Positions 12,127-38,883 of a DNA stretch of 64,000 nucleotides are shown one piece after another. Source of the DNA: Naegleria gruberi (taxonomy: Eukaryota); assembly GCA_000004985.1 (NCBI GenBank), contig GG738846.1; one strand, written 5' to 3'. The notes beneath the pieces are model-generated. The model was not told the origin of the DNA. It did not search any database and saw only the letters and a list, made by a program, of their open reading frames with translations. Made by a program: the position numbers and the translations under genes. The stretch's first letter is position 1; the number at the start of each line of letters is the position of its first letter.

Positions 12127-12820
12127 ATGGCTAAACACTTTCCTACTCAGTTTGGATCCACTTCTTCACGAGACGATTTTACTAACGATCTACACTTTGT
12201 AAAAGCATTCAAGAGGGAAGAAAAAAAAACACCATTATTCTGTGCGAATGATTTTCTCACATTACGAAATGGTGACGTTATTAAAATTAAAATTATTAAA
12301 GTATGTTGATGGATGAATTAATAATTCTAAACTAGAGTCGTACAGGGTGAGGAACTTGTAGTTTGTGATATAAATGGAAAGGCTGGTAAGTTTGGAATTT
12401 ATTGGTGTCAGTGTGTTTATCTTTTTGAAATTAATTTATGCAAATGGAATTACTTTGTTAGATCCATGGTAAGTTTGTAATTCATTGGTTAATGTTTATT
12501 TGGAATGAATTTGGAAAAGGTGTCAGATATATGTCAAGGGATTTAATGAAACACCCTCTACAAGTGTTGTTAAAAAGACTTTGAATCCTGTTTGGGATGA
12601 AAGTTTTTCATTTATAGTGACTGATAGTGAGCTTCTTTCTGTGGATATTGTATTTAGAGTGATGGATAGAGATATGTTTTCCGATGATTTTATGGGTCAA
12701 TCGGTTGTATATTTAACTAGGAAAGATTTTTCTCTGAATTGTTTCAAGAATTTCACTTTACCGTTGGTGGGTGTTGATCATGGATTGTTACACGTGTCAA
12801 TAGGTGTTTTTAGAGATTAA
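12127..12820 (+). CDS. Small C2-domain protein. About 4 exons: 12127-12300, about 12342-12381, a possible 7-nt micro-exon near 12458-12464, and 12516-12820.
   Basis: C-terminal exon encodes a C2-like fold (VVKKTLNPVWDESFSFIVTD...VMDRDMFSDDFMGQSVVYL). Donors gtatgt and gtaagt. AAAAATG start. Confidence 0.55.
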
Positions 12821-13399
12821 CAGATTATAGTTTTAGAAAATCATCCTTAATGTTAACTAATTTTACAAATACAACAATCTAACAATTTTAAGCAATATTT
12901 TATTAATACATTGGATGTAGATCAATTTGGCCTTCATCTGCAGAATCTGCCAAATTAAAGTATTTGGAAGCTGTATTAGGAGTACTCTTCATCATGGTCG
13001 TTCTCCTATTTTCACCAGCACTTGCTATGGAACTACTTGGGCTTGAACCTAGTTCTTCTTCGACAATGGTTTGGAAATCTTTTTGGTCAACCTGTATTCT
13101 TAATTGCTTCTTTTTAGGTATATCTTTTTTGTTAGGGATAACCTTATTCTTAGGTGTATTTTTTACAGAGGATTGATTTTGCCTAGTTGGTGGAGCAGAT
13201 GATGGCCTAGTACCTCTTTTCTCATTCTTTGGAAGAACGCTCTTATAGTAACCAACAACTCCAGCTGCCTTTTTCTTATTGAAATTATCTATTGGATGAG
13301 GATAAGAGTAGCCTTTTCCTTCCTTATTTACAACCATTGAATTTCTCTTTGTTTCCTCAGCAAATTCATCCAGCTCCTTATCAGGTAGAAACTCGTACT
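12591..13399. repeat. Copy 1 of a ~808-bp near-identical (~99%) segmental duplication (copy 2 at 14182-14989)
   Basis: Direct comparison shows only a few substitutions (e.g. gtattagg vs gtaccagg; gccttttcc vs gccctttcc). Covers the 3' end of the C2 gene and the 3' end of a convergent minus-strand gene. Confidence 0.85.
12903..13397 (-). pseudogene. Truncated paralog (the C-terminal 144 codons) of the 14494-15576 gene; upstream sequence diverges at 13399
   Basis: The 144-aa ORF is identical except for one residue to the C-terminus of the 360-aa protein at 14494-15576. It lacks that gene's N-terminal 216 codons. The upstream ORF (13328-13540) is in a different frame. Confidence 0.45.
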
Positions 13400-13656
13400 A
13401 TTTGAATAATCAAAATCAATAACTTCATCTTGTTGTTCCATCTTTCTTCGTTGTTGATCCTCTCCCATTCTATTTAAACTCGATAGAACAGAAACCAAAG
13501 GTTTGGTTTTCATAACTGGTTCAACAAGACTGTTAGTCATTTATAAGAATACTATCAAAAACCCTTACTACTTACATTTCATCATCTTCTTCCACCAACA
13601 GTGGTTGCCAATTTTGCACTGCAGGGGCAACATATTCACTAGCTGGAGAAAACATT
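13328..13656 (-). CDS. Hypothetical small chimeric ORF. Exon 1 is about 13572-13656 (MFSPASEYVAPAVQNWQPLLVEEDDEM). After a gtaagtagtaagg intron, an exon reads into the duplicated segment out of frame with the paralog ORF.
   Basis: ATG plus a GTAAGT donor on the minus strand. The ORF ends at 13328. May be a young chimeric gene or non-functional. Confidence 0.25.
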
Positions 13657-14131: not shown

Positions 14132-14181
14132 NNNNNNNNNNNNNNNNNNNNNNNNNNNNNNNNNNNNNNNNNNNNNNNNNN
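14132..14181. other. Assembly gap (50 N)
   Basis: Run of n. Confidence 1.
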
Positions 14182-14411
14182 TTTGGGATGAAAGTTTTTC
14201 ATTTATAGTGACTGATAGTGAGCTTCTTTCTGTGGATATTGTATTTAGAGTGATGGATAGAGATATGTTNTCAGATGATTTTATGGGTCAATCGGTTGTA
14301 TATTTAACTAGGAAAGATTTTTCTCTGAATTGTTTCAAGAATTTCACTTTACCGTTGGTGGGTGTTGATCATGGATTGTTACACGTGTCAATAGGTGTTT
14401 TTAGAGATTAA
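14182..14411 (+). CDS. 3' fragment of a C2-domain coding exon (duplicate of 12591-12820), preceded by the gap
   Basis: Identical protein tail ...VGVDHGLLHVSIGVFRD. Contains one n at 14270. Confidence 0.45.
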
Positions 14412-14989
14412 CAGATTATAGTTTTAGAAAATCATCCTTAATGTTAACTAATTTTACAAATACAACAATCTAACAATTTTAAGCAATATTTTATTAATAC
14501 ATTGGATGTAGATCAATTTGGCCTTCATCTGCAGAATCTGCCAAATTAAAGTATTTGGAAGCTGTACCAGGAGTACTCTTCATCATGGTCGTTCTCCTAT
14601 TTTCACCAGCACTTGCTATGGAACTACTTGGGCTTGAACCTAGTTCTTCTTCGACAATGGTTTGGAAATCTTTTTGGTCAACCTGTATTCTTAATTGCTT
14701 CTTTTTAGGTATATCTTTTTTGTTAGGGATAACCTTATTCTTAGGTGTATTTTTTACAGAGGATTGATTTTGCCTAGTTGGTGGAGCAGATGATGGCCTA
14801 GTACCTCTTTTCTCATTCTTTGGAAGAACGCTCTTATAGTAACCAACAACTCCAGCTGCCTTTTTCTTATTGAAATTATCTATTGGATGAGGATAAGAGT
14901 AGCCCTTTCCTTCCTTATTTACAACCATTGAATTTCTCTTTGTTTCCTCAGCAAATTCATCCAGCTCCTTATCAGGTAGAAACTCGTAC
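14182..14989. repeat. Copy 2 of the ~808-bp segmental duplication
   Basis: Near-identical to 12591-13399. Begins exactly at the gap edge. Confidence 0.85.
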
Positions 14990-15576
14990 ATATAATCAGG
15001 TATTCTTTCACTTGCAATTTTATAGTACTCTCTTGTCTTGGCTGTCAAATCTTTGATGGATTCTAGTTGATCCGCGAGAAGGGTAAACGTTGTTCTCTTA
15101 TCTCTTACAACTTGGTCATCATCAGGTATTTGAGAAAGTTGGGTGTGAATTTTGGAATAGGATAATTCAGCCATCTTTAACAATGAGTCGAGTTCTCCTG
15201 GTGTTGAAAGGGCAGCTACTTCATGTGGTTGTACATCTACTAGGGCTAGTTTTTTCTCTATTGGCAGAGGCTTTACTCTGAAGTAATTGAAATCTTGCAG
15301 AATTTCATTAAGGTAGTGATATGTCTTCGGTTTTAGAGGGGAGGACACTGATTTTCTCAGCTTGACTGATGCAGTCACCGTAGACTTTTGTCGTTTCTTC
15401 TCCTTCTTTCTTATGAGACGTTTCATTTTCATTTCAATTGCAAAGGCATCCTTCTTTTTGGCAAAAATTTCCTCAATATTATTCTTTAGATCCTTCTTTT
15501 TAAATTCCTCCTCTGCTATGGTTTTTTTCACTTCTATTGAAGGTATTTTCCTTCCCCTTTGTTTACTAGCGTCCAT
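14494..15576 (-). CDS. Hypothetical 360-aa basic K/E-rich protein, single exon
   Basis: ATG verified at 15574-15576 (MDASKQRGRK). Charged N-terminal region then a P/S/K-rich tail. Its last 144 aa are duplicated at 12903-13337. Confidence 0.55.
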   Translation of the reverse strand: MDASKQRGRKIPSIEVKKTIAEEEFKKKDLKNNIEEIFAKKKDAFAIEMKMKRLIRKKEKKRQKSTVTASVKLRKSVSSPLKPKTYHYLNEILQDFNYFRVKPLPIEKKLALVDVQPHEVAALSTPGELDSLLKMAELSYSKIHTQLSQIPDDDQVVRDKRTTFTLLADQLESIKDLTAKTREYYKIASERIPDYMYEFLPDKELDEFAEETKRNSMVVNKEGKGYSYPHPIDNFNKKKAAGVVGYYKSVLPKNEKRGTRPSSAPPTRQNQSSVKNTPKNKVIPNKKDIPKKKQLRIQVDQKDFQTIVEEELGSSPSSSIASAGENRRTTMMKSTPGTASKYFNLADSADEGQIDLHPMY

Positions 15577-15623: not shown

Positions 15624-15673
15624 NNNNNNNNNNNNNNNNNNNNNNNNNNNNNNNNNNNNNNNNNNNNNNNNNN
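15624..15673. other. Assembly gap (50 N)
   Basis: Run of n. Confidence 1.
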
Positions 15674-15674
15674 A

Positions 15675-15935
15675 ACTGGAATTGCTGATTCTTTACAAAG
15701 TGTCATGATTATTAATTTGGCATTCAATGCAATTGGAGGTCAAATTCCAAAAGAGTATGGTGAAATACCCTCACTAACTGGAATCCATTTAGGAAGCAAT
15801 CATTTCGAAGGATTATTGCCTTCAGGTCTCTGCCGTGTATTGTCCTGTGACTGTTACAATAATCCAAAACTATTGTGCCCAGCCGATAATTGTAATAATA
15901 ACCATTGTAACATTACCTTTTTTCAAAATTTGTAA
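15675..15935 (+). CDS. C-terminal fragment of an extracellular-type LRR protein (plant-like LRR consensus ..NAIGGQIPKEYGEIPSLTGIHLGSNHFEGLLPSGL then a Cys-rich tail); 5' part lost in the gap
   Basis: The frame is open from the gap edge (TGIADSLQSVMIINLAFNAIGGQIP...). LxxLxLxxNxFxGxLP pattern. Cys-rich cap CDCYNNPKLLCPADNCNNNHC. Confidence 0.4.
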   Translation, partial: TGIADSLQSVMIINLAFNAIGGQIPKEYGEIPSLTGIHLGSNHFEGLLPSGLCRVLSCDCYNNPKLLCPADNCNNNHCNITFFQNL

Positions 15936-16133: not shown

Positions 16134-18976
16134 TTAATTGTTATTCAACCCTCTTTGTGAAAAGTAGTGATGTTTTAAAATAGAGCCAGCATCTGGTCGT
16201 CTTTCTGGATCCTTCTCCAACATGCTAAACACCAACTCCACCAACTCTAATGAATAGATCTGTAAACTAATCTTCTCCTTTAATATTTGTTTGACAGTTT
16301 CAGAATCCTTTAACATGTACATTTGATTGATGGAAGTTGTTGTATCATGAGATAGAATCTGGTATAGAGTAACTCCCAAACTGAATATATCAGTTTTATG
16401 ATCACATGAAATTCCACACAACAATTCTGGTGAAATATACAATGGAGTTCCAGCTAATGAAAAACTGGTTGATTGTTTTGAGTTTTTTGCCAAACCAAAA
16501 TCAGCAATGATAATGTCAATGGCTGAATCATTCATTTTCTGAATGAAAATATTGGAAGGTTTAATATCTCTGTGAATAACTCTGATTTAGTGTTAAATCC
16601 ACATATTTTAATATGTTTCTAAACTTACCCAAAGTTGATGAAAATATAATCCAAGGCACTACATGATTGAAATAATATTTGAGCAATTAAAAGTTCTGAA
16701 CAAAATTTGGATCCAGTAATGAGTCTATTCAAATCACCCATCTCATAATAAGTCATATCAATACATAGAATTTGACCATTTCCAATAAAGAAATCATTCA
16801 CTTTGAGAACATTTGGGTGATTCATCTTTAAAAGTTGAATTCCTTCTCTCATAGCCACGTTCAAATCTTCATGGTTATCAAATCTAACCACTTTGATTGC
16901 TTTGACTTCATTATTACATTTAGTGTCATTCACTTTAAACACACTTCCACCTTGTCCAATCTTTACCAAATTTGTATATCTATCCATTGGATCATTTTGA
17001 GATTCTTTTGAAGATGAAGTATATTGAGAAGGGAAATCAGAAATCATTGTTGATTGTGTGAATGATTTTAATTCTTCTTCCGAAGGATTCACCGTATCAA
17101 TGTTCAAAGTTGCTTCCTTTGCTCTATTTCTATTAATTAACACAATAATGATAATTACAAAAATTACAATGATTAAAATTACAATAAATAGGGTTGGAAC
17201 AAGTACTGCAACTAGTATAGTTGTTTGATCAGATTGAGCACTAAGATTTGTTCCATTATTTTGCTTATTAATTGCTGAGCAATCCTTATTATAAGTTGTT
17301 ACATCTGATGTTGGACATGTACAAGTGTCAGGAGCTGTACATTCACCAATACTTGAACAAACCAGTCTACTACTAGAAGAAACTCCAAAACAATTAAATG
17401 TTTCACAATCAGCTCCACTATAACCTGTCTGACATGAACAATTGTTTGGTGCAATGCAATTTCCTTTTGAGGAACATACGTTTACATCTGTTTTGAGTAT
17501 ATTATTACATTTAAACATGCTACATGTGGAATTTAGATATCCACTATTACAAGTACATTCATCTTTGGCAGTACATTTACCAAAACCTGAACAAACATTT
17601 GGTTGACTATTTGATATTCCAAAACATGAATATTCCTGACAATACGACCCATTATAATGATCTTGACATGAACAAGCATTATATGCATAACAAAATCCAT
17701 GTGAAGAACAAACACCTGAACTGTCATATCTTACTCCATTGCAATTAAATAAATTACAACTAGTTCCATATCCAAAATATCCTTCAAAACAATTACAATC
17801 ACTTCCTGATTGAGTAGAATTTAAAGGACATGGTACAATTTTTCTAATATAATTATAATTAGTGTCTGCAATAAATATTTCACCCAATTGATTGATTGAA
17901 ACTCCATGAGGTGATAAATTTGTAGAATTTCCCAATAAACCATCCCCATTGAAAAGTTGATTTCCTGTTCCAGCAAATGTTGAAATAATTCCACTTGTTG
18001 AAATCTTTCTAACTCTGAAATTGACTGAATCTGCAAAAAATACTTCACCCAATTGATTTACTGTAATTCCTCTAGGTGAAAATATCTTTGCCATTGTTCC
18101 TAATATTCCATCTCCATTGTAACCATTTGAACCTATTCCAGCAATTGTGGTAATCGTACCATTTGTCAATATTTTACGAATTCTAGAATGAGAGAGAACT
18201 GAAATGTATACTTGACCTATTTGGTCAACTGCAACACCTGTAGGAGAACAAATATTTGCATTAGTTGCTAAAATACCATCTCCATTAAAATCACATGATC
18301 CTGTTCCAGCAATTGTTGTAATGGTACCATTTGTCAAAATTTTACGAATTCTATTATTTCCAGTATCTTTCCAAATTTAACAGTTAAAAGTTCAACAATA
18401 ATACCTACCTGCAATTATAACTTCTCCCAATTGACTAATAGCAACTGCATTTGGATTTTTAACATTGGCACTTGTTGACGGAATAAAATCACCATTATAG
18501 GCTCCATCTCCAACACTAGTCCCAGCAATTGTTGTTATGGTACCATTTGTCAATATTTTACGAATCCTATTTCCAAATTCAGCAATAATAATTTCACTCA
18601 GTTGACTAACAGCAATATCATAGGGATAGTAAAGTTGGGCATTGGTAGCTAGTATGTTATCACCATTATATCCAGCAGTACCAGTTCCAGCAATTGTTGT
18701 TATTGTGCCATTAGTTAAAATCTTTCGAATACGATGATTGCTCGTATCTGATATCAGAATCTCCCCAGTTGATTCGAGAAAGGCAACAGATGAAGGTGAA
18801 TTTAGAGTTGCAGATGATGCCAACATGTAATCTCCATTGTAAACACTTGAACCCGTTCCAGCAATTACTTTCAAATAGTTTCCAACTCCAAAAGTTGTTT
18901 GTTGTGCTGTGCTTGTTTCAACAACCAACCATGCAGAAAGTAGAAGCAAGCACATGTAAATGATTTGTCGAAACAT
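16134..18976 (-). CDS. Receptor-like Ser/Thr protein kinase: signal peptide, NHL repeats, EGF-like Cys-rich repeats, TM, then kinase domain. 3 exons: about 18410-18976, 16629-18362, 16134-16584.
   Basis: N-terminal MFRQIIYMCLLLLSAWLVVETSTAQ. Repeated ..GTGxxGYNGDG.LAT.A.L..P.GVAV..LGEV.IAD..N.RIRKI (NHL-like) 6-7 times. Cys-rich CxxxxxCxCxxGYxGxxC units. TM LVAVLVPTLFIVILIIVIFVIIIIVLI. Kinase motifs GQGGSVFKV, KAIK, HRDIKPSNIF, DFGLAK, GTPLYISPE. Introns gtaggt...ggaaag and gtaagttt...aatcag keep frame. Confidence 0.7.
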
Positions 18977-19865: not shown

Positions 19866-21839
19866 ATGAAACCAACAACAGAAGCATCATCTTTTCGAAA
19901 CAATAGAAATCGTTCCTCAACTCTTCCTATGAGGTTGTCAAAGAATATGGCTATTGAAAATATCAATCAGTCAATAAAACAATCATTTAGAAATTCAAAA
20001 ACCACAGTTGACCTAAATGAAAGTCAAGGAAGTATGATTATAAAAGATAGAATTTCTTTCTCTAGAAGTAGGCGTTCAAGCACAGCATCAGGTTCAAAAC
20101 AGCCAACATCACTCTACAAGAGACTCTTATCCAACCTCAAACATGGTGATGATTCCATGTCAGACATTATAAGTGAAACATCATATGACACTTCCATGTC
20201 GGGTTTAGTAACGTCATCTATGGGAATAGGTTTCAGATTAAATGGAGCCAACAACACTCCCACACACAAACAAGAAATATCCGAATTGAATAATTTAGTT
20301 TCTCAATTCATGTGTTGTGGCTTTCCAATTGTGGTTTTTGACAAGAAGGGTTGTATTGTCTATATGAATAGAGAATCAGAGGAAATGTTTGGAACATTTA
20401 GTTTTTCAGTATTGGGTGAAGATTTAGTTGAGGTTTTTATGGAGGACACAATTCTCGATATTCACACGTTAATTGATGATTTTTTAGGATTTTCAATGGA
20501 AGATATTGAAGGAGTTGACAGGAAGAATATCAGTCTCAAGAATATGCCTTATGAATTATTGAGCGAGGAAGATAAATCAAAGAGAAGAAGTCACCTTTCA
20601 AAAGAGAGAATTTTGAAAGGAAAATCAATAACTTTGAATCAATTCTTTACCATCTCAACAAAACTTGTTCCAATTAAGAAGAAACATGAAATTCACTTTT
20701 GTGCCTATATGAAATTTGTTGAATTTATTGATAATGAAGAGTTGAACACAATATATGAGAATTTAGATTCCGTTCATGTACAAATTACAAATGCAAGTAT
20801 TGTTCCAATTGTGGCGATTAATGATAAGGGAAGTGTTTTGGTATTCAATAAGGCTGCCACACTGACATTTGGATATGAAAATAGTGAAATAATTGGAAGA
20901 AATGTCAAAATTATTTGTAATAGAAAAGATAGAATGAATCATGACATGTATTTGGAGAGATTTGCCAAAACTGAAAAGAAGAAAATTCTAGATCGTATTA
21001 AGAAAGTCAAAGGTCAAACAAAAGATGGTAAAAGTATTCCAGTGGAAATCAAAATTTCTCAAATTGTCAAAAATGGTCAATCATTATTTGTTGCCTATTT
21101 CAGAGATTACAAATTATTATCCAATCAAGATGAACAAATGACAGGTATTGCAGAAAAGATTTATCCAAGAAATATTGCAGAAAGATTAAGTATGGGCCAG
21201 AAAATCATTGACCAAGTTGATGGATGTTCCATGTTATATTGTGATTTGGTTGGTTTTACAGAGTTATCATCAACCATGCCACCTAAACAAGTTGTTTCTC
21301 TACTACACTCAATATTTTCAAATTTTGATGAAATTTGTCAAAAGTTCAAGATGGAAAAGATTAAAACAATAGGAGATAGTTACTTTTTAGCTTCTGGTTT
21401 AAGGAATGAAACTAGTTCAGTTGACCATATGATTAAGGGTGGTCTTTTAATGATTACAACAGTGAATCAATTTTCAGAATCGACAGGAAATAGTTTACAA
21501 GTTAGAGTTGGAATTCACACCTCAATAGGAGGTGATGTCATTGCAGCTGTAGTTGGTAAAGTGAAGAGAACGTACGATCTCTTTGGGTCTGATGTTAAAA
21601 TTGCTCAACTAATGGAAATGACTGGAATTACTAATGAATTACACATCTCCAACAATACCTACAAATCCATCAAGAGTGAAAAGAGAAAATCACTCTTTAT
21701 TGAAAAATTCAAAGAGGGAGATGAAATTTTAATGGACAAGTATGCAGAACCATTGCAGATACCGACAAATAGTTGGGTAACACACAATGTGTTAGAATTA
21801 CTCAATAGAGATAAGGAAAAGTCAATTCAACAACAATAA
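19866..21839 (+). CDS. PAS-PAS-class III nucleotidyl cyclase homology domain protein (657 aa), single exon
   Basis: Two PAS folds (CCGFPIVVFDKKGCIVYMNRESEEMFG..; IVPIVAINDKGSVLVFNKAATLTFGYENSEIIGRNVKII..). C-terminal CHD with LYCDLVGFT, KIKTIGDSYF and GGDVIAAVVGKVKRTYDLFGSDVKIAQLMEMTG. ATG verified at 19866. Confidence 0.75.
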   Translation: MKPTTEASSFRNNRNRSSTLPMRLSKNMAIENINQSIKQSFRNSKTTVDLNESQGSMIIKDRISFSRSRRSSTASGSKQPTSLYKRLLSNLKHGDDSMSDIISETSYDTSMSGLVTSSMGIGFRLNGANNTPTHKQEISELNNLVSQFMCCGFPIVVFDKKGCIVYMNRESEEMFGTFSFSVLGEDLVEVFMEDTILDIHTLIDDFLGFSMEDIEGVDRKNISLKNMPYELLSEEDKSKRRSHLSKERILKGKSITLNQFFTISTKLVPIKKKHEIHFCAYMKFVEFIDNEELNTIYENLDSVHVQITNASIVPIVAINDKGSVLVFNKAATLTFGYENSEIIGRNVKIICNRKDRMNHDMYLERFAKTEKKKILDRIKKVKGQTKDGKSIPVEIKISQIVKNGQSLFVAYFRDYKLLSNQDEQMTGIAEKIYPRNIAERLSMGQKIIDQVDGCSMLYCDLVGFTELSSTMPPKQVVSLLHSIFSNFDEICQKFKMEKIKTIGDSYFLASGLRNETSSVDHMIKGGLLMITTVNQFSESTGNSLQVRVGIHTSIGGDVIAAVVGKVKRTYDLFGSDVKIAQLMEMTGITNELHISNNTYKSIKSEKRKSLFIEKFKEGDEILMDKYAEPLQIPTNSWVTHNVLELLNRDKEKSIQQQ

Positions 21840-23257: not shown

Positions 23258-24487
23258 ATGCAAATACTAAGAGATCAAGGAGCCTATATTGTTTCCTTTG
23301 TTAGAACACCAATCGGATCTAATGGAGGAAGCCTCTCATCACTCTCTGCCATAAAAATTGGTTCGGTTGCACTCAAGGAAGCCATTCAGAGATCCAATCT
23401 TTCATTAGGACAAGTTGAAGAGGTAATTATGGGATCTGTTTTACAGGCTGGTCTGGGCCAAAATCCTACTAGACAAGTTGCTCTCGGAGCTGGCTTATCA
23501 ACAGAGGTTATTTGTACAACTGTGAACAAAGTGTGTAGTTCTGGAATGAAATCAATTCACTATGGAGCTTTGGAAATAATGTGTGGACAACGTGATATTA
23601 TTGCATGTGGAGGTGTTGAATCAATGTCAAATACTCCTTATTATTTAAATGAATATAGAAATGGAAAGAGAATGGGAGATGGTAAAATAGTAGATGGAAT
23701 GATGTATGATGGTCTTTTTGATCCTTATCATTCAACCATGATGGGTAAATTTGCAGATGTCACTGCAACAACATATAACATCTCAAAACAAGAACAAGAT
23801 GATTACTCTGTGAAGAGTTATGAAAGAGCAATGAAAAATGCAGATAAATTCAAGAAGGAAATTGTTCCTGTAAAGGTGAATGCAAATTTAACATTGGACC
23901 ATGATGAGGAAGTTTCTAAATTCAGAGGTGCTGATAAATTAAAATCACTCAAACCAGCATTTTCTAAGGAAGGTGGATCTGTAACTGCTGGTAATGCCAG
24001 TAAAATTAGTGATGGAGCTGCCTTTGTAGTGTTGGTAAGTGGAAGATTCTTAAAATCGAATCCAACCTATTTGGCCTCCATTAGAAATCAAAGCATTTTC
24101 CAAGTATTATCATTTGAAGATGCTGAAAAGGAACCTAATTGGTTCACAATTGCTCCATCAGTTGCCATTCCAAAAGCCATTAAGAAGGCAGGTCTCTCAA
24201 TTGACCAAGTTGATAATTTTGAAATTAATGAAGCATTTGCAGCTGTTGCATTAGCCAATTCTAAAATTTTAAATCTTCCAGAAGAAAAGGTCAATATCTG
24301 GGGAGGTGCAGTTGCATTAGGGCATCCATTAGGTTGTTCAGGAGCTAGAATTGTTGTCACTCTCTGTAATCAATTATGTACAAACAATAAGACTATAGGT
24401 TGTGCTGGTATTTGTAATGGAGGTGGTGGTGCAAGTTCTCTAGTTCTTAAGAGAATTGATCCTTCTCATTTAAATTCCTCCCTTTAA
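23258..24487 (+). CDS. Acetyl-CoA C-acetyltransferase (thiolase II, acetoacetyl-CoA thiolase)
   Basis: 409 aa. Motifs NKVCSSGMKSI (active Cys), GGVESMSN, NEAFAAVALAN, GHPLGCSGARIV, CNGGGGASSLVL. AAAAATG start. Confidence 0.9.
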   Translation: MQILRDQGAYIVSFVRTPIGSNGGSLSSLSAIKIGSVALKEAIQRSNLSLGQVEEVIMGSVLQAGLGQNPTRQVALGAGLSTEVICTTVNKVCSSGMKSIHYGALEIMCGQRDIIACGGVESMSNTPYYLNEYRNGKRMGDGKIVDGMMYDGLFDPYHSTMMGKFADVTATTYNISKQEQDDYSVKSYERAMKNADKFKKEIVPVKVNANLTLDHDEEVSKFRGADKLKSLKPAFSKEGGSVTAGNASKISDGAAFVVLVSGRFLKSNPTYLASIRNQSIFQVLSFEDAEKEPNWFTIAPSVAIPKAIKKAGLSIDQVDNFEINEAFAAVALANSKILNLPEEKVNIWGGAVALGHPLGCSGARIVVTLCNQLCTNNKTIGCAGICNGGGGASSLVLKRIDPSHLNSSL

Positions 24488-36201: not shown

Positions 36202-38883
36202 TTACAATTTTGGTCTTGGTGGAGTATTTCTTTCAATGAATTTGGCAGCTGGTCTGTCAGGGTAGAAACGTTCATTATTTTCAGCCATTGAGAGTAAGAG
36301 CTTACTTGGCTTGAATCTGACACTACCATTTGATGAACCATATAAATCTGAAAGTTCTTTCAATCTCTTGACAATCCATTTAGCTCCCTTAGAGTCAGCA
36401 TATTGAAGTAGACCACCTCTGAATGGTGCAAAACCAGTGCCAAAGATCATACCCATATCAATATCTTGAGCTGTTTCAGCAACTCCTTCCTCTAAAATAA
36501 GACATGCTTCATTGACCATAAGCAATACACAACGATCAATGATTTCTTCTGGTGGGAATTTACGACGAAGCTTTGGATCATAACCTGGGAAGACTTGCAA
36601 AACATCAGGATTGATATCTCCCTTCTTTACCTTTTCAGCATGTTCTCCATAAAGGAAGATACCCTTTCCAACCTTCTTACCTAATAATTTAGCATCGACC
36701 AATTTCTTCAAATCAAAGAGAGAATTACCACTTGTTTCAGTAAATCTTTGACCAAGAACTCTCAGAGTTTCTCCAGAGTGATAAGCAACATCAGTACCAA
36801 CTTCATCCAATAATCTGAATGGACCCATTGGCATACCAAATTGCTCAACCATTACCTTATCAATTTGTTGAATTTCACCACCATCATTAATCAAACGACC
36901 TGCTTCAGTCATATAGATACCCAAAATTCTATTTACAATAAATCCAGGACCATCATGACATACAATTGGAATCTTACCCAAGTCGAGTGCCAATTTGTAA
37001 ATGGTTGCAACAGTTTCATCTGAAGTTTGCTTTCCACGAATAATTTCTACGAGTGGCATCTTGTGAACTGGATTGAAAAAGTGCATACCAACAACCAAAT
37101 CTGGATGTTTAGAAACTGTAGCCAATTCATTGATAGAAAGGGTAGAAGTATTGGTAGCAAAAATAACATTTCCAGAACTGGCAAAAGATTTTTCACATTC
37201 CAATAAAATCTTCTTCTTGAGATCCATGTTTTCTACGGCAGCCTCAATGACAACTTGAATACTGGAAGAGTTGTCAGATTTTGGATATTCAGTACCTCCA
37301 GAAACAAGCTTGATTCTGAAAAGAGCTTCCTCTCTTGACATTCTTCCCTTCTTTACATAGTCGTCCATGAAAATTCTCTCAACAATATTCATTCCATTCT
37401 TTACAAATTCAGGTTTGATATCCTTCATAAATATTGGATAATTTTTGTGTGCAAAAAGTTGGGCGATACCACTACCCATAACACCAGCACCAATCACAGC
37501 AACAGATGGAGCAACAGTTCCTGCCTTCTTGGCAGATGTTGGATCATAGGTTACCTTTGTGACTTGTTTCAATTTGTTCAATTTTCCAAATCTCTTCTTC
37601 CAATTCTTGGCATTTTCACGCATAAAGAAGACTGACATTAAATTCTTTGATTCAGCAGTAACTGCCATCTTGCCAAATAATTGTCTTTCCATAAGTAATG
37701 CTCTTCCATTAGACATACCAGATTTAGTGGAATTATAAACAGATTGCAAAGCAGAGTATGGAGCTGGATATTTGCCACGAGTTGTCTTGTCAAGATTTGA
37801 AAGAGCCATTTGAGCAACAAATTTACGTCCAATGAAATTACCTTCCAACAACTTGTCTTGAATTGTTTTTGGAACATATTTAGCAACTGATGGTTGTTTG
37901 TCAACTGTTTTTGCTCCAGCAAAATTTCTACAAGCTGAAAGGAATCTAAATTCATTTTCAATTCTATCTTGATATGGAATAATGACATCCACAATATTTG
38001 CCTTTTTAGCACGAGTAGCTGAGAGAGTCTTTCCAGGTAAAATCAATTCCAAACTCTTTTGTAAACCAACCAATTTACTCATACGAACTGTACCACCAGC
38101 ACCTGGAATCACTCCTAGCATGACTTCAGGCAAACCAACAGTTGTACTCTTATGATCACTGGCTAATCTGTGAGTTGTGGCAAGACATAGTTCAAATCCA
38201 CCACCAAGTGCAGGTCCATGAATGCAACTCAATGTTGGTACTCCAAGACTGGCCAATTTATCCATAGCATCTTGACCATACTTGGCTGCTTTTTCTGCAG
38301 ATTTCTCATCCAAGTTTGGATACATCATATTAATATCGGCTCCTACACAGAAACTATTATTCTTTGCTGATGTGATCAAGAGTGACTTGATTTTCTTTGT
38401 TTTAATACGAGCATCAATAACTTCCAAAATTGATTTGATATCGGAAATGAATTGTCCATCAATAACATTGACTCCAACCAATTCACCTTTAGTAGTTTTT
38501 AATGTTTCCAATATTTCATTCTCACTTTTAATTGTTTTTTCATTTTCTAATAATATTCAATTATTATTAATTGAACAAATTAAAATTAAATTAATTTGTT
38601 AGTTGACAAAAGACGATCAATTACTTAGTAATGAATCAGTGGAAATAAACTTACTAGCATCACCAACTTTTAAAAACTTTTGATTCAGTACAAGCCATCC
38701 CAATGTATCAGAATCAACAAATAAATCAAAACACAAGTTTGTATAATATTCAGTTATTCTTCCACTCTCGGAAAGTAAATACTTTTCTGTTGGTGAAGAC
38801 ACTTGTATATTCAAAGCTTGAAGAATTGGATGTTGTATATTTCTATACAGTGTTGATGAGACTGGTTCTTGTTGTCCTTGCAT
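36202..38883 (-). CDS. Fatty-acid beta-oxidation multifunctional enzyme (enoyl-CoA hydratase plus 3-hydroxyacyl-CoA dehydrogenase, FadB/MFE-1-like). 2 exons: about 38624-38883 and 36202-38525.
   Basis: Hydratase fold in exon 1 and the start of exon 2 (DTLGWLVLNQ...; FCVGADINMM). Rossmann VAVIGAGVMGSGIAQ and the 3HCDH region. Intron gtaagtttatttcc...attag keeps frame. The track start at 38511 is TTG; the real N-terminal exon is the 38617-38886 ORF. C-terminal ..PKL. Confidence 0.8.

What the first reader, a model, noticed from the sequence alone, without database searches (positions are those of the whole stretch)
16134..18976. Receptor-like Ser/Thr kinase with an NHL-repeat beta-propeller plus EGF-like ectodomain
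Seen in sequence: a signal peptide, about 6-7 NHL-type repeats, about 5 Cys-rich EGF-like modules, a single TM, and a complete kinase domain with Ser/Thr-type catalytic loop HRDIKPSN (not the DLAARN of tyrosine kinases). It sits next to a second LRR ectodomain fragment at 15675-15935 across a gap. Inference: the NHL/EGF combination resembles extracellular ligand-binding modules of metazoan receptors (e.g. teneurin/LRP-like) but is fused here to a cytoplasmic kinase.
Basis: partly seen in the sequence, partly recalled or inferred. Interest (0 to 1): 0.55.

Follow-up and report, generated by a model that had tools for sequence, protein, structure and literature searches.

The report
Naegleria NHL–EGF receptor Ser/Thr kinase gene
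This is an intact three-exon gene of the amoeboflagellate Naegleria gruberi for a cell-surface receptor (six-bladed NHL propeller on an EGF-like stalk, one membrane span, internal Ser/Thr kinase); it belongs to an uncharacterised family found so far only in Naegleria, so it is a modest find.

Summary
On the minus strand, 18976-16134 encodes a 917-aa protein from three exons with two GT-AG introns of 42 and 47 nt. The order of parts is signal peptide, six NHL blades, one truncated plus four complete EGF-like modules, one TM helix, a Ser/Thr-rich juxtamembrane segment and a C-terminal kinase with HRDIKPSN. Exon 2 alone joins blades 4-6, all EGF modules, the TM and the kinase N-lobe, so the fusion is not a gene-model artefact.

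The window is Naegleria gruberi NEG-M (Heterolobosea), not a dictyostelid. The kinase is not TKL-like or tyrosine-kinase-like; it scores about equally with STE20, NEK, ULK and CAMK kinases. The NHL propeller is closest to a bacterial teneurin-like protein.

Relatives with the same architecture occur in N. gruberi, N. fowleri and N. lovaniensis. All are named only "predicted" or "hypothetical", and I found no paper on them. This paralog is at most 53% identical to any of them. Its 917-aa model is absent from the public protein collection. It alone lacks two residues of the glycine-rich ATP loop.

Best reading: a type I receptor Ser/Thr kinase, possibly with weakened catalysis. The ligand is unknown. 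Interest is modest.

The parts
18409..18976 (-). Exon 1: start codon, signal peptide and NHL blades 1-3 (aa 1-190, first base of codon 190)
   Evidence: An in-frame TAA lies 36 nt upstream of the ATG (read).
18367..18408 (-). Intron 1, 42 nt, GT..AG. If retained it gives a stop after GRYYC.
   Evidence: After splicing, the junction ...GEVIIA|DTGNNRIRK matches the blade consensus.
16629..18366 (-). Exon 2: NHL blades 4-6, all EGF-like modules, TM, juxtamembrane segment and kinase N-lobe, up to ...DYIFINFG
   Evidence: A single uninterrupted ORF.
16582..16628 (-). Intron 2, 47 nt, GTAAGT..TCAG
   Evidence: The spliced junction FINFG|VIHRDIKPSN aligns without a gap to eight paralogous kinases.
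16134..16581 (-). Exon 3: kinase catalytic loop to the C-terminus, plus the stop codon (16134-16136)
18905..18976 (-). Predicted signal peptide, aa 1-24 (MFRQ + 15 hydrophobic residues + TSTA|QQ)
   Evidence: The cleavage site is inferred from the -3/-1 rule.
17837..18895 (-). Six NHL repeats, inferred to form a six-bladed beta-propeller; aa 28-366; contains intron 1
   Evidence: Pfam NHL 9e-28 and TEN_NHL 9.8e-25. Six copies. PDB relatives 9IFO at 4.6e-64, Pizza6, teneurin-2 and PknD.
17279..17836 (-). EGF-like stalk, aa 367-552: one truncated four-Cys module plus four six-Cys modules
   Evidence: Pfam EGF_2 and EGF_Teneurin above their cut-offs. Cys spacing. AF2 pLDDT 85.6. Foldseek hits to Jagged, DLL, Notch and integrin-beta EGF arrays.
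17135..17218 (-). Transmembrane helix I573-I600, followed by the positive-inside NRNRAK
   Evidence: Kyte-Doolittle maximum of 4.15; the only such segment apart from the signal peptide.
16976..17134 (-). Ser/Thr-rich juxtamembrane segment, aa 601-653, with the family-conserved DFPS motif (aa 633-636; 17027-17038)
16161..16975 (-). Protein kinase domain, aa 654-909; contains intron 2
   Evidence: Pfam Pkinase 1.5e-44. Best PDB relatives are NEK1, CDPK, NEK7, MST3 and ULK3.
16940..16957 (-). Glycine-rich loop G660-Q-G-G-S-V665, two residues shorter than the canonical GxGxFGxV
   Evidence: (gap in the HMMER alignment to NEK1).
16551..16574 (-). Catalytic loop HRDIKPSN (aa 772-779), Ser/Thr type
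16425..16502 (-). Activation segment from DFG (796-798) to SPE (819-821), containing S803, S806, T807, S808, S810 and T814

Best explanation
This is a type I, single-pass receptor Ser/Thr kinase gene of Naegleria gruberi, and a divergent paralog of a family seen so far only in Naegleria.

Shown here:
- The domain order is signal peptide, six NHL repeats, 4.5 EGF-like modules, TM helix with positive-inside flank, a ~50-aa Ser/Thr-rich juxtamembrane segment with a conserved DFPS motif, and an RD-type Ser/Thr kinase that ends 8 residues before the C-terminus.
- The catalytic Lys, Glu, HRD, Asn and DFG are all intact.
- Ectodomain, TM and kinase are physically continuous in a single exon.
- The same architecture recurs in three Naegleria species.

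Inferred:
- The protein enters the secretory pathway and sits in the plasma membrane.
- The NHL propeller is held away from the membrane on a disulfide-bonded, N-glycosylated EGF stalk, and its face binds an extracellular ligand or surface. Candidates are prey bacteria, substrate or other Naegleria cells.
- Binding clusters receptors. The RD kinase domains then trans-phosphorylate Ser/Thr residues in the activation segment (KNSKQSTSFSLAGTP) and juxtamembrane region, and go on to phosphorylate cytosolic targets.
- This paralog alone has lost the two residues at the tip of the glycine-rich loop. Its ATP handling is therefore probably weakened, and it may signal mainly together with fully active paralogs.

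The module is a chimera. It combines an NHL propeller of the bacterial teneurin-like type, eukaryotic EGF modules, and a eukaryotic kinase with no clear group assignment (STE20, NEK, ULK and CAMK all score alike).
For: - Gene model and domains.
- Continuity: exon 2 encodes NHL blades 4-6, the EGF modules, the TM and the kinase N-lobe. Both splice junctions restore sequence that aligns seamlessly to paralogs or to the repeat consensus.
- Purifying selection: the four copies of the 15-aa motif IRKILTNGTITTIAG differ at 3-9 of 45 nucleotides, and every difference is synonymous.
- EGF stalk: AF2 pLDDT 85.6 with Foldseek hits to tandem EGF arrays.
- Kinase type: Pkinase 152.8 bits against PK_Tyr_Ser-Thr 80.9 bits. 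The best solved relatives are NEK1, CDPK, NEK7, MST3, ULK3 and CaMK1.
- Family: the exhaustive profile search, local domain mapping, Pfam scans and cluster names show NHL(+EGF)-TM-kinase proteins in three species (P0024 and P0030). In N. gruberi these are D2VCE7, D2VUG2, D2VNU7, D2VPM5, D2VGC0, P0024 and P0030. In N. fowleri they are FDP41_013523 and FDP41_002843. In N. lovaniensis it is C9374_012036.
- Organism: nine neighbouring ORFs match N. gruberi NEG-M proteins exactly.
Against: - There is no transcript, protein, localisation, ligand or activity evidence. Splicing is inferred from sequence only.
- The 917-aa model is not in the public protein collection. No hit above 53% identity to it was returned. 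The gene may therefore be unannotated, or possibly not expressed.
- The two-residue deletion in the G-loop is found in none of the 22 family members whose loop could be read, so the kinase may be impaired.
- At least one paralog, D2VGC0, is clearly kinase-dead (HGNIKTSN), so kinases in this family can decay.
- Closure of the six blades into a propeller could not be modelled, because the structure tool refuses spliced sequences.
Confidence: 0.65

Rival explanations
1. It is a kinase-impaired co-receptor, that is, a pseudokinase or very weak kinase. The ectodomain still binds ligand, but the shortened glycine-rich loop prevents productive ATP positioning. The cytoplasmic domain would then act as a scaffold or allosteric partner, or as a substrate of active paralogs.
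For: - The G-loop reads GQG--GSV where every other readable family member has GxGxFGxV. HMMER places the same two-residue gap against NEK1.
- The N. gruberi paralog D2VGC0 (P0445) has the same N-terminal layout of one propeller plus an EGF array. It has lost the catalytic Asp (HGNIKTSN) and also has a shortened G-loop and activation segment. Kinase-dead receptors therefore exist in this family.
Against: - All three glycines and the valine of the loop are kept, as are K681, E697, HRD, N779, DFG and SPE. True pseudokinases usually lose at least one of these.
- This gene does not group with D2VGC0 in a neighbour-joining tree. Its best sister is P0176, with only 29% bootstrap support.
Confidence: 0.2
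2. It is a silent or decaying paralog: an intact-looking reading frame that is not expressed, which would explain why it is missing from the annotated protein set.
For: - The exact model is absent from the collection, while nine neighbouring genes are present.
- No hit above 53% identity was returned in three word-based searches.
- Only one UniProt accession (D2UZI4) falls between the two flanking genes. By GenBank numbering it is probably a plus-strand model. This is my inference from the accession order.
Against: - The 917-codon frame is intact across two canonical introns in 31% G+C DNA.
- Differences between the repeated motif copies are all synonymous.
- All catalytic residues are kept.
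- N. gruberi annotation of this family is visibly incomplete: several kinase-only models of 151-290 aa look truncated. Absence from the annotation is therefore weak evidence.
- The word-based searches also missed known family members. P0024 and P0030 are absent.
Confidence: 0.1
3. It is an assembly or gene-model artefact that joins an NHL/EGF surface-protein gene to a separate kinase gene.
For: - The scaffold has gaps nearby (14132-14181 and 15624-15673).
- An 812-bp 99.3% duplication abuts one of them.
- Naegleria also has NHL-EGF-TM proteins without a kinase (P0069, P0073).
Against: - There is no gap inside 16134-18976.
- A single ORF (exon 2) runs from the NHL blades through the TM into the kinase N-lobe.
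- At least ten independent proteins in three species share the architecture.
Confidence: 0.02

Closest known systems
Naegleria NHL(-EGF)-TM-kinase paralogs and orthologs: N. gruberi D2VCE7, D2VUG2, D2VNU7, D2VPM5, D2VGC0, P0024, P0030; N. fowleri FDP41_013523 and FDP41_002843; N. lovaniensis C9374_012036
   Same: - Same architecture and order of parts.
- Same kinase subfamily (45-53% identity).
- Same 39-aa EGF unit.
- The same juxtamembrane DFPS motif in 12 of the 27 sequences examined, this gene included.

   Different: - This one is the smallest complete member seen: one propeller and 917 aa, against 1037-2807 aa with up to 17 NHL repeats.
- It is at most 53% identical to any other member.
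- It alone has the two-residue G-loop deletion.
- Its model is not in the protein collection.
- None of the family has been studied. No paper in the library holds both 'Naegleria' and 'NHL repeat'.
Mycobacterium tuberculosis PknD and PknD-like bacterial kinases (e.g. P0006)
   Same: A single-pass Ser/Thr kinase whose extracellular sensor is an NHL beta-propeller. PknD 1RWI matches the NHL region at E 6.9e-12. P0006 has Pkinase plus NHL repeats.
   Different: - The order is reversed in bacteria: kinase N-terminal, propeller C-terminal.
- There is no EGF stalk.
- The kinase here resembles eukaryotic STE20, NEK, ULK and CAMK kinases, and no bacterial PknB-type chain appears in the top 60.
- The similarity is therefore best read as convergent domain combination, not shared descent of the whole gene.
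Teneurins and bacterial teneurin-like proteins (BiTLP, PDB 9IFO/9PT5; PMC13018210)
   Same: - The NHL subtype: BiTLP is the best solved relative at E 4.6e-64, and Pfam TEN_NHL scores 87.7 bits.
- EGF modules of the teneurin-like Pfam types.
- In both, the EGF modules lie next to the membrane and the NHL domain lies distal to them. The teneurin domain order is taken from PMC13018210.

   Different: - No YD/RHS shell, FN-plug, TTR or toxin domain.
- Type I rather than type II orientation.
- It carries a kinase, which teneurins lack.
Plant wall-associated kinases (WAKs) and other receptor-like kinases
   Same: Type I receptor with EGF-like repeats outside and an RD Ser/Thr kinase inside; a lineage-specific expansion. 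The WAK description is from established knowledge.
   Different: - Plant RLK kinases belong to the IRAK/Pelle (TKL) group. No such kinase is among the 60 best solved relatives here.
- WAKs have no NHL propeller.
Entamoeba histolytica transmembrane kinases (EhTMKs; PMC2880585)
   Same: A protist-specific, multi-copy family of proteins with an extracellular domain, one TM segment and an intracellular kinase.
   Different: A different organism (Entamoeba), a different family, and no NHL propeller. No specific sequence relationship was detected in any search here.

Membership tests
Eukaryotic protein kinase superfamily (Pfam PF00069) | Profile score above the curated threshold | tested here: met
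   152.8 bits against a cut-off of 31.7, covering profile positions 2-263 of 263.
Eukaryotic protein kinase superfamily (Pfam PF00069) | Catalytic residues: VAIK Lys, alpha-C Glu, HRD Asp, catalytic-loop Asn, DFG, APE | tested here: met
   K681, E697, D774, N779, D796-F-G and S819-P-E (SPE is also the family's own form).
Eukaryotic protein kinase superfamily (Pfam PF00069) | Canonical glycine-rich loop GxGxxGxV | tested here: not met
   The loop reads GQG--GSV. The two residues between the second and third Gly are missing, although all 22 other readable family members are canonical.
Ser/Thr-specific (not Tyr) kinase | HRDxKxxN catalytic loop and a GT-containing P+1 loop, not HRDLAARN/HRDLRAAN | tested here: met
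   HRDIKPSN and AGTPLYISPE. Pkinase scores above PK_Tyr_Ser-Thr.
NHL-repeat beta-propeller (PF01436 / PF25021) | Repeat profile above threshold, and six repeats in tandem | tested here: met
   NHL 95.3 bits (cut-off 20) and TEN_NHL 87.7 (27.1). Six copies with a period of 55-58 aa. Solved six-bladed relatives.
NHL-repeat beta-propeller (PF01436 / PF25021) | The repeats close into a six-bladed propeller | not testable with these tools
   The domain spans intron 1, and structure prediction refuses spliced sequences.
EGF-like domain | Six-Cys pattern, profile above threshold, EGF fold | tested here: met
   EGF_2 36.0 bits (22.1) and EGF_Teneurin 29.1 (24.3). Four modules with C-x10-C-x5-C-x5-C-x-C-x8-C. 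AF2 pLDDT 85.6 and Foldseek probability 1.00 to Jagged, DLL, Notch and integrin EGF arrays. Disulfide pairing was not tested.
Type I single-pass membrane receptor | Cleavable signal peptide, one TM segment, positive-inside flank | tested here: inconclusive
   The hydropathy profile and flanking charges fit. No dedicated signal-peptide or topology predictor was available, and there is no experiment.
Teneurin / teneurin-like protein | FN-plug + NHL + YD/RHS shell superfold; type II orientation | tested here: not met
   Only the NHL and EGF families hit. There is no RHS/YD, TTR or toxin domain. The N-terminal signal peptide and C-terminal cytoplasmic domain give the opposite orientation.
PknD-type bacterial receptor kinase | N-terminal cytoplasmic Hanks kinase, TM, C-terminal NHL sensor | tested here: not met
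   The order of parts is reversed. The best solved kinase relatives are eukaryotic, and no PknB-type chain is in the top 60.
   None appear among the 60 best PDB matches, whether searched by sequence or by family profile. PF07714 scores 80.9 bits, below PF00069 at 152.8. No formal kinase-group classifier was run.
   No PF00058 hit at E<=1.
Naegleria NHL-EGF receptor-kinase family (unnamed) | Family-type C-terminal kinase preceded by a TM, with an NHL and/or EGF ectodomain | tested here: met
   45-53% identity to family kinases, against about 30-35% to others. The architecture is shared. The DFPS motif is shared. The lower boundary of the family is fuzzy: an Ank+kinase protein scores 257 bits.

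The most novel reading that the evidence does not exclude
Naegleria may have built its own class of cell-surface receptor kinases, independently of animals, plants and bacteria. On this reading it captured a bacterial teneurin-like NHL propeller by horizontal transfer and fused it to an EGF stalk and a eukaryotic Ser/Thr kinase. This would parallel the bacterial origin of metazoan teneurins and converge on the design of mycobacterial PknD. The family would then serve as sensors for prey bacteria or for self-recognition. This paralog, and the kinase-dead D2VGC0, would be examples of receptors evolving towards pseudokinase co-receptors.
Probability: 0.25. Interest if true: 0.55.

Novelty: new variant of a known kind. 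Interest (0 to 1): 0.35.

Why it matters
Single-pass receptor kinases have arisen separately in animals, plants, Entamoeba and bacteria. A Naegleria family that combines a bacterial-type NHL propeller, EGF modules and a non-TKL Ser/Thr kinase adds an independent example from Discoba, a deep and little-studied branch of eukaryotes. It also gives concrete candidates for how a bacterivorous amoeba, and its pathogenic relative N. fowleri, sense surfaces or prey.

For this particular locus the practical points are smaller:
- The gene appears to be missing from the public protein set.
- Several family members look truncated in the N. gruberi annotation.
- This paralog carries a unique two-residue deletion in the ATP-binding loop, which makes it a natural test case for how much of that loop a kinase needs.

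None of this overturns current understanding.

Tried and rejected
**Tool attempts that led nowhere**
Only the EGF region, which lies inside exon 2, could be modelled.
- The look-up of encoding contigs held no record for three N. gruberi neighbour genes. I could therefore not read the public annotation of this locus.
- Exact look-ups of two versions of the LRR fragment also failed, so the identity of UniProt D2UZI4 is unresolved.
- The afdb50 fold library, which could have shown whether this protein is in UniProt, was not available.
- The N. gruberi genome paper is not held in the library.
- Four completed literature searches found nothing on Naegleria NHL or receptor kinases. A fifth query was rejected for its syntax.

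**Analyses that gave nothing useful**
- Tandem Repeats Finder saw no DNA-level repeat for the blades. The blades are 56-74% identical at the DNA level, so they are not a recent duplication.
- The sigma-70 promoter and terminator scan is irrelevant for a eukaryote and showed no enrichment.
- tblastn found no second copy of the gene in the window.

**Ideas considered and rejected**
- A dictyostelid origin and a TKL kinase.
- An LRP-like propeller.
- Teneurin membership.
- Whole-gene descent from a PknD-like bacterial kinase.
- A specific sister relationship with the kinase-dead paralog D2VGC0.
- A functional link to the LRR fragment, which is on the opposite strand and ends in its own stop codon.
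Full report
**1. What is in the sequence**

The region lies in 31-34% G+C eukaryotic DNA. On the minus strand three ORFs (18976-18392, 18337-16625, 16535-16134) join into one reading frame once two short GT-AG introns are removed. The introns are 18408-18367 (42 nt) and 16628-16582 (47 nt). The result is a 2754-nt CDS and a 917-aa protein.

- The ATG at 18976 is preceded by an in-frame TAA 36 nt upstream.
- Retaining intron 1 gives a stop after five codons.
- Both spliced junctions restore conserved sequence. ...GEVIIA|DTGNNRIRK fits the blade consensus. ...DYIFINFG|VIHRDIKPSN aligns without a gap to eight paralogous kinases.
- Exon 2 alone is 1738 nt with no stop. From base composition I calculate the chance of this as about 4e-21. 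It encodes NHL blades 4-6, every EGF module, the TM helix, the juxtamembrane segment and the kinase N-lobe.

**2. Domains**

- Pfam scores: Pkinase 152.8 bits (aa 654-909), NHL 95.3, TEN_NHL 87.7, PK_Tyr_Ser-Thr 80.9, EGF_2 36.0 and EGF_Teneurin 29.1. All are above their curated cut-offs.
- There are six NHL repeats (aa 28-366) with a period of 55-58 aa.
- Residues 369-552 hold 28 Cys, arranged as one truncated four-Cys module and four C-x10-C-x5-C-x5-C-x-C-x8-C modules with a 39-aa period.
- An AlphaFold2 model of this region, built with 15 homologous EGF stretches, reaches mean pLDDT 85.6. Foldseek matches it to the tandem EGF arrays of Jagged-1/2, Delta-like 1/4, Notch-1, the integrin beta stalk and SCARF1, with probability 1.00 and best E 2.7e-7.
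- By sequence the best solved EGF relative is WIF-1, at 1.3e-6.
- The only strongly hydrophobic internal segment is I573-I600. It is followed by NRNRAK and preceded by an acidic/polar stretch.
- The N-terminus (MFRQ, 15 hydrophobic residues, TSTA|QQ) looks like a cleavable signal peptide.
- Twelve N-x-S/T sequons lie in the ectodomain. Four of them sit in the conserved blade motif LTNGTITT.

**3. The kinase**

K681, E697, HRDIKPSN (772-779), DFG (796-798) and SPE (819-821) are all present. It is an RD kinase with a Ser/Thr-type catalytic loop.

Searched by sequence, the best solved relatives are NEK1 (1.1e-25), a CDPK, PKR, NEK7, ULK3, CaMK1, MST3 and CHK2. With a profile of the family, MST3/STK24, ULK3, STK25, NEK1/2, CDPK1, SLK and ULK1 all score 120-137 bits. 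No group stands out. No TKL, IRAK/RLK, TGF-beta-receptor, tyrosine or bacterial PknB-type kinase is in either top 60. I read it as a lineage-specific eukaryotic Ser/Thr kinase.

One feature is unusual. The glycine-rich loop reads GQG--GSV, two residues shorter than GxGxFGxV.
- HMMER puts the gap there against NEK1.
- MAFFT puts it there against all paralogs.
- All 22 other family members whose loop could be read are canonical.
- The three glycines and the valine survive, but the hairpin tip that clamps the ATP phosphates (established kinase structure knowledge) is shortened.

**4. Organism and family**

Nine ORFs elsewhere in the window match proteins of Naegleria gruberi NEG-M exactly, on a 1,001,995-bp scaffold.

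The full-length query finds N. gruberi proteins with the same architecture at 37% identity over 95% of its length (P0024 at 1414 aa, P0030 at 1037 aa).

An exhaustive HMMER search with a kinase profile against 1.84 billion cluster representatives was followed by local mapping of NHL, EGF, TM and kinase, Pfam scans and cluster names. Together these show a family of proteins with one C-terminal kinase preceded by a TM, and mostly by EGF modules and 1-17 NHL repeats:
- N. gruberi: D2VCE7, D2VUG2, D2VNU7, D2VPM5, D2VGC0.
- N. fowleri: FDP41_013523 and FDP41_002843.
- N. lovaniensis: C9374_012036.
- Unnamed environmental sequences.

A few members carry the same kinase behind EGF-only or unrecognised ectodomains. 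N. fowleri and N. lovaniensis also have NHL-EGF-TM proteins with no kinase (P0069, P0073). All named members are only 'predicted' or 'hypothetical'. No paper in the library holds both 'Naegleria' and 'NHL repeat'.

The present gene is a divergent paralog:
- It is at most 53% identical in the kinase, at most 45% in the EGF region and at most 47% in the NHL region to anything retrieved.
- It is weakly placed in a neighbour-joining tree. Its best sister is P0176, with 29% bootstrap.
- Its 917-aa model is not in the 15-billion-protein collection, and no near-identical hit appeared in any search.
- Only one UniProt accession (D2UZI4) lies between the two flanking genes. GenBank numbering suggests it is a plus-strand model. 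The gene is therefore probably unannotated, but I could not verify this.

**5. Origin of the parts**

The best solved relative of the NHL region is the NHL domain of the Bacillus inaquosorum teneurin-like protein (9IFO/9PT5, E 4.6e-64; PMC13018210). It is far ahead of the next solved relatives: the designed Pizza propellers, the plant protein SOQ1, teneurin-2 (1.8e-17), NHLRC2, TRIM71 and PknD (6.9e-12).

In the large database the best NHL matches outside Naegleria are bacterial or metagenomic, at 45-48% identity. That is as close as the Naegleria paralogs. The kinase, in contrast, looks eukaryotic.

The receptor is therefore a chimera. Its likeness to bacterial PknD-type proteins (P0006: kinase, TM, NHL) is in design only, because the order of parts is reversed. 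Horizontal acquisition of the NHL module is plausible but was not tested.

**6. Is the gene alive?**

Four copies of the 15-aa blade motif IRKILTNGTITTIAG differ at 3-9 of 45 nucleotides, with no amino-acid change. Whole blades are 56-74% identical in DNA and 32-59% in protein, and TRF sees no DNA repeat. This pattern indicates selection on the protein rather than recent duplication or gene conversion. There is no direct evidence of expression.

**7. Mechanism**

Best reading (0.65): a type I receptor Ser/Thr kinase. The NHL propeller, held on a glycosylated EGF stalk, binds an external ligand or surface. Clustering allows trans-phosphorylation of the Ser/Thr-rich activation segment and juxtamembrane region, and the kinase then signals to cytosolic substrates. 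The domain anatomy is shown. Localisation, ligand binding, clustering and activity are inferred.

Rivals:
- A kinase-impaired co-receptor (0.2). This is supported by the unique loop deletion and by the clearly kinase-dead paralog D2VGC0, which has HGNIKTSN and a shortened G-loop and activation segment.
- A silent paralog (0.1).
- An assembly or model artefact (0.02).

**8. Comparison and verdict**

It works like other single-pass receptor kinases. It is not a member of the teneurin, PknD, plant RLK/WAK, TKL, RTK or LRP families (see the membership table). It is a member of an unnamed, uncharacterised Naegleria family.

I class it as a new variant of a known kind. The receptor-kinase principle and each of the three modules are known. 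The combination NHL-EGF-TM-kinase in type I order has, as far as my searches show, not been described in the literature, although paralogous sequences sit unremarked in databases. Interest is modest (0.35).

Noticed in passing
window 15675-15935 (+), gap 15624-15673: This is the 3' end of a plus-strand ORF with plant-type LRR-like periodicity (…LTGIHLGSNHFEGLLPSGLC…) and a Cys-rich tail. It ends in its own stop 198 bp from the stop of the kinase gene (tail-to-tail). Its 5' part is lost in the assembly gap. Pfam LRR_1 scores only 16.6 bits, below the 20.6 cut-off. Neither version tried is in the protein collection.
   Followed up: partly
window 12591-13401 and 14182-14993; gap 14132-14181: There is an 812-bp direct duplication at 99.3% identity, and the second copy starts exactly at the edge of an assembly gap. 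It makes two annotated proteins (D2UZI2 at 144 aa and D2UZI3 at 360 aa) share a nearly identical C-terminus. It is probably an assembly or haplotype artefact.
   Followed up: partly
window 19866-21839 (+): The divergent neighbour, 890 bp upstream of the kinase gene's ATG, is a 657-aa PAS-PAS-adenylate/guanylate cyclase (N. gruberi D2UZI5). This is another signalling gene.
   Followed up: partly
N. gruberi proteins P0138, P0139, P0142, P0176, P0177, P0178 (not in this window): Six annotated N. gruberi 'protein kinase' models of 151-290 aa contain only the family kinase domain. Some start with residues that look like the end of a TM or juxtamembrane segment (MIISSS…). They are probably truncated models of further receptor genes, so the family is under-annotated in NEG-M.
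   Followed up: no
N. gruberi D2VGC0 (P0445 / P0317), not in this window: This paralog has the same N-terminal layout (one propeller plus a long EGF array) but a degenerate kinase. HRD is replaced by HGN, the G-loop is shortened to GSGRTFKV, and the activation segment is truncated. It is a predicted receptor pseudokinase.
   Followed up: partly
window 17027-17038 (-), aa 633-636: The juxtamembrane motif (I/P)(S/T)DFPS(D/E/Q)xS is conserved in 12 of the 27 sequences examined (this gene included), from N. gruberi, N. fowleri and N. lovaniensis. Its function is unknown; it could be a docking or phosphorylation site.
   Followed up: partly
window 17837-18895 (-), aa 89, 144, 202, 258: The most conserved blade motif, LTNGTITTIAG, contains an N-glycosylation sequon (NGT) in four of the six blades. 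If used, the propeller would carry a ring of glycans.
   Followed up: no
metagenomic relative P0137 (578 aa): This environmental family member has a weak, sub-threshold match to the GPS autoproteolysis motif (PF01825, 19.1 bits against 22.5, E 0.0019) between its EGF module and the TM.
   Followed up: no
window 23258-24487 (+) and 36202-38511 (-): Two fatty-acid beta-oxidation genes lie within about 12 kb of each other. One is a thiolase and the other an enoyl-CoA hydratase / 3-hydroxyacyl-CoA dehydrogenase multifunctional enzyme.
   Followed up: no
tool behaviour: The word-indexed protein search failed to return P0024 and P0030 (and, P0137), although their kinase domains are 46-50% identical to the query and were part of the query alignment. 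'No hit' from that tool is therefore weak evidence of absence.
   Followed up: yes
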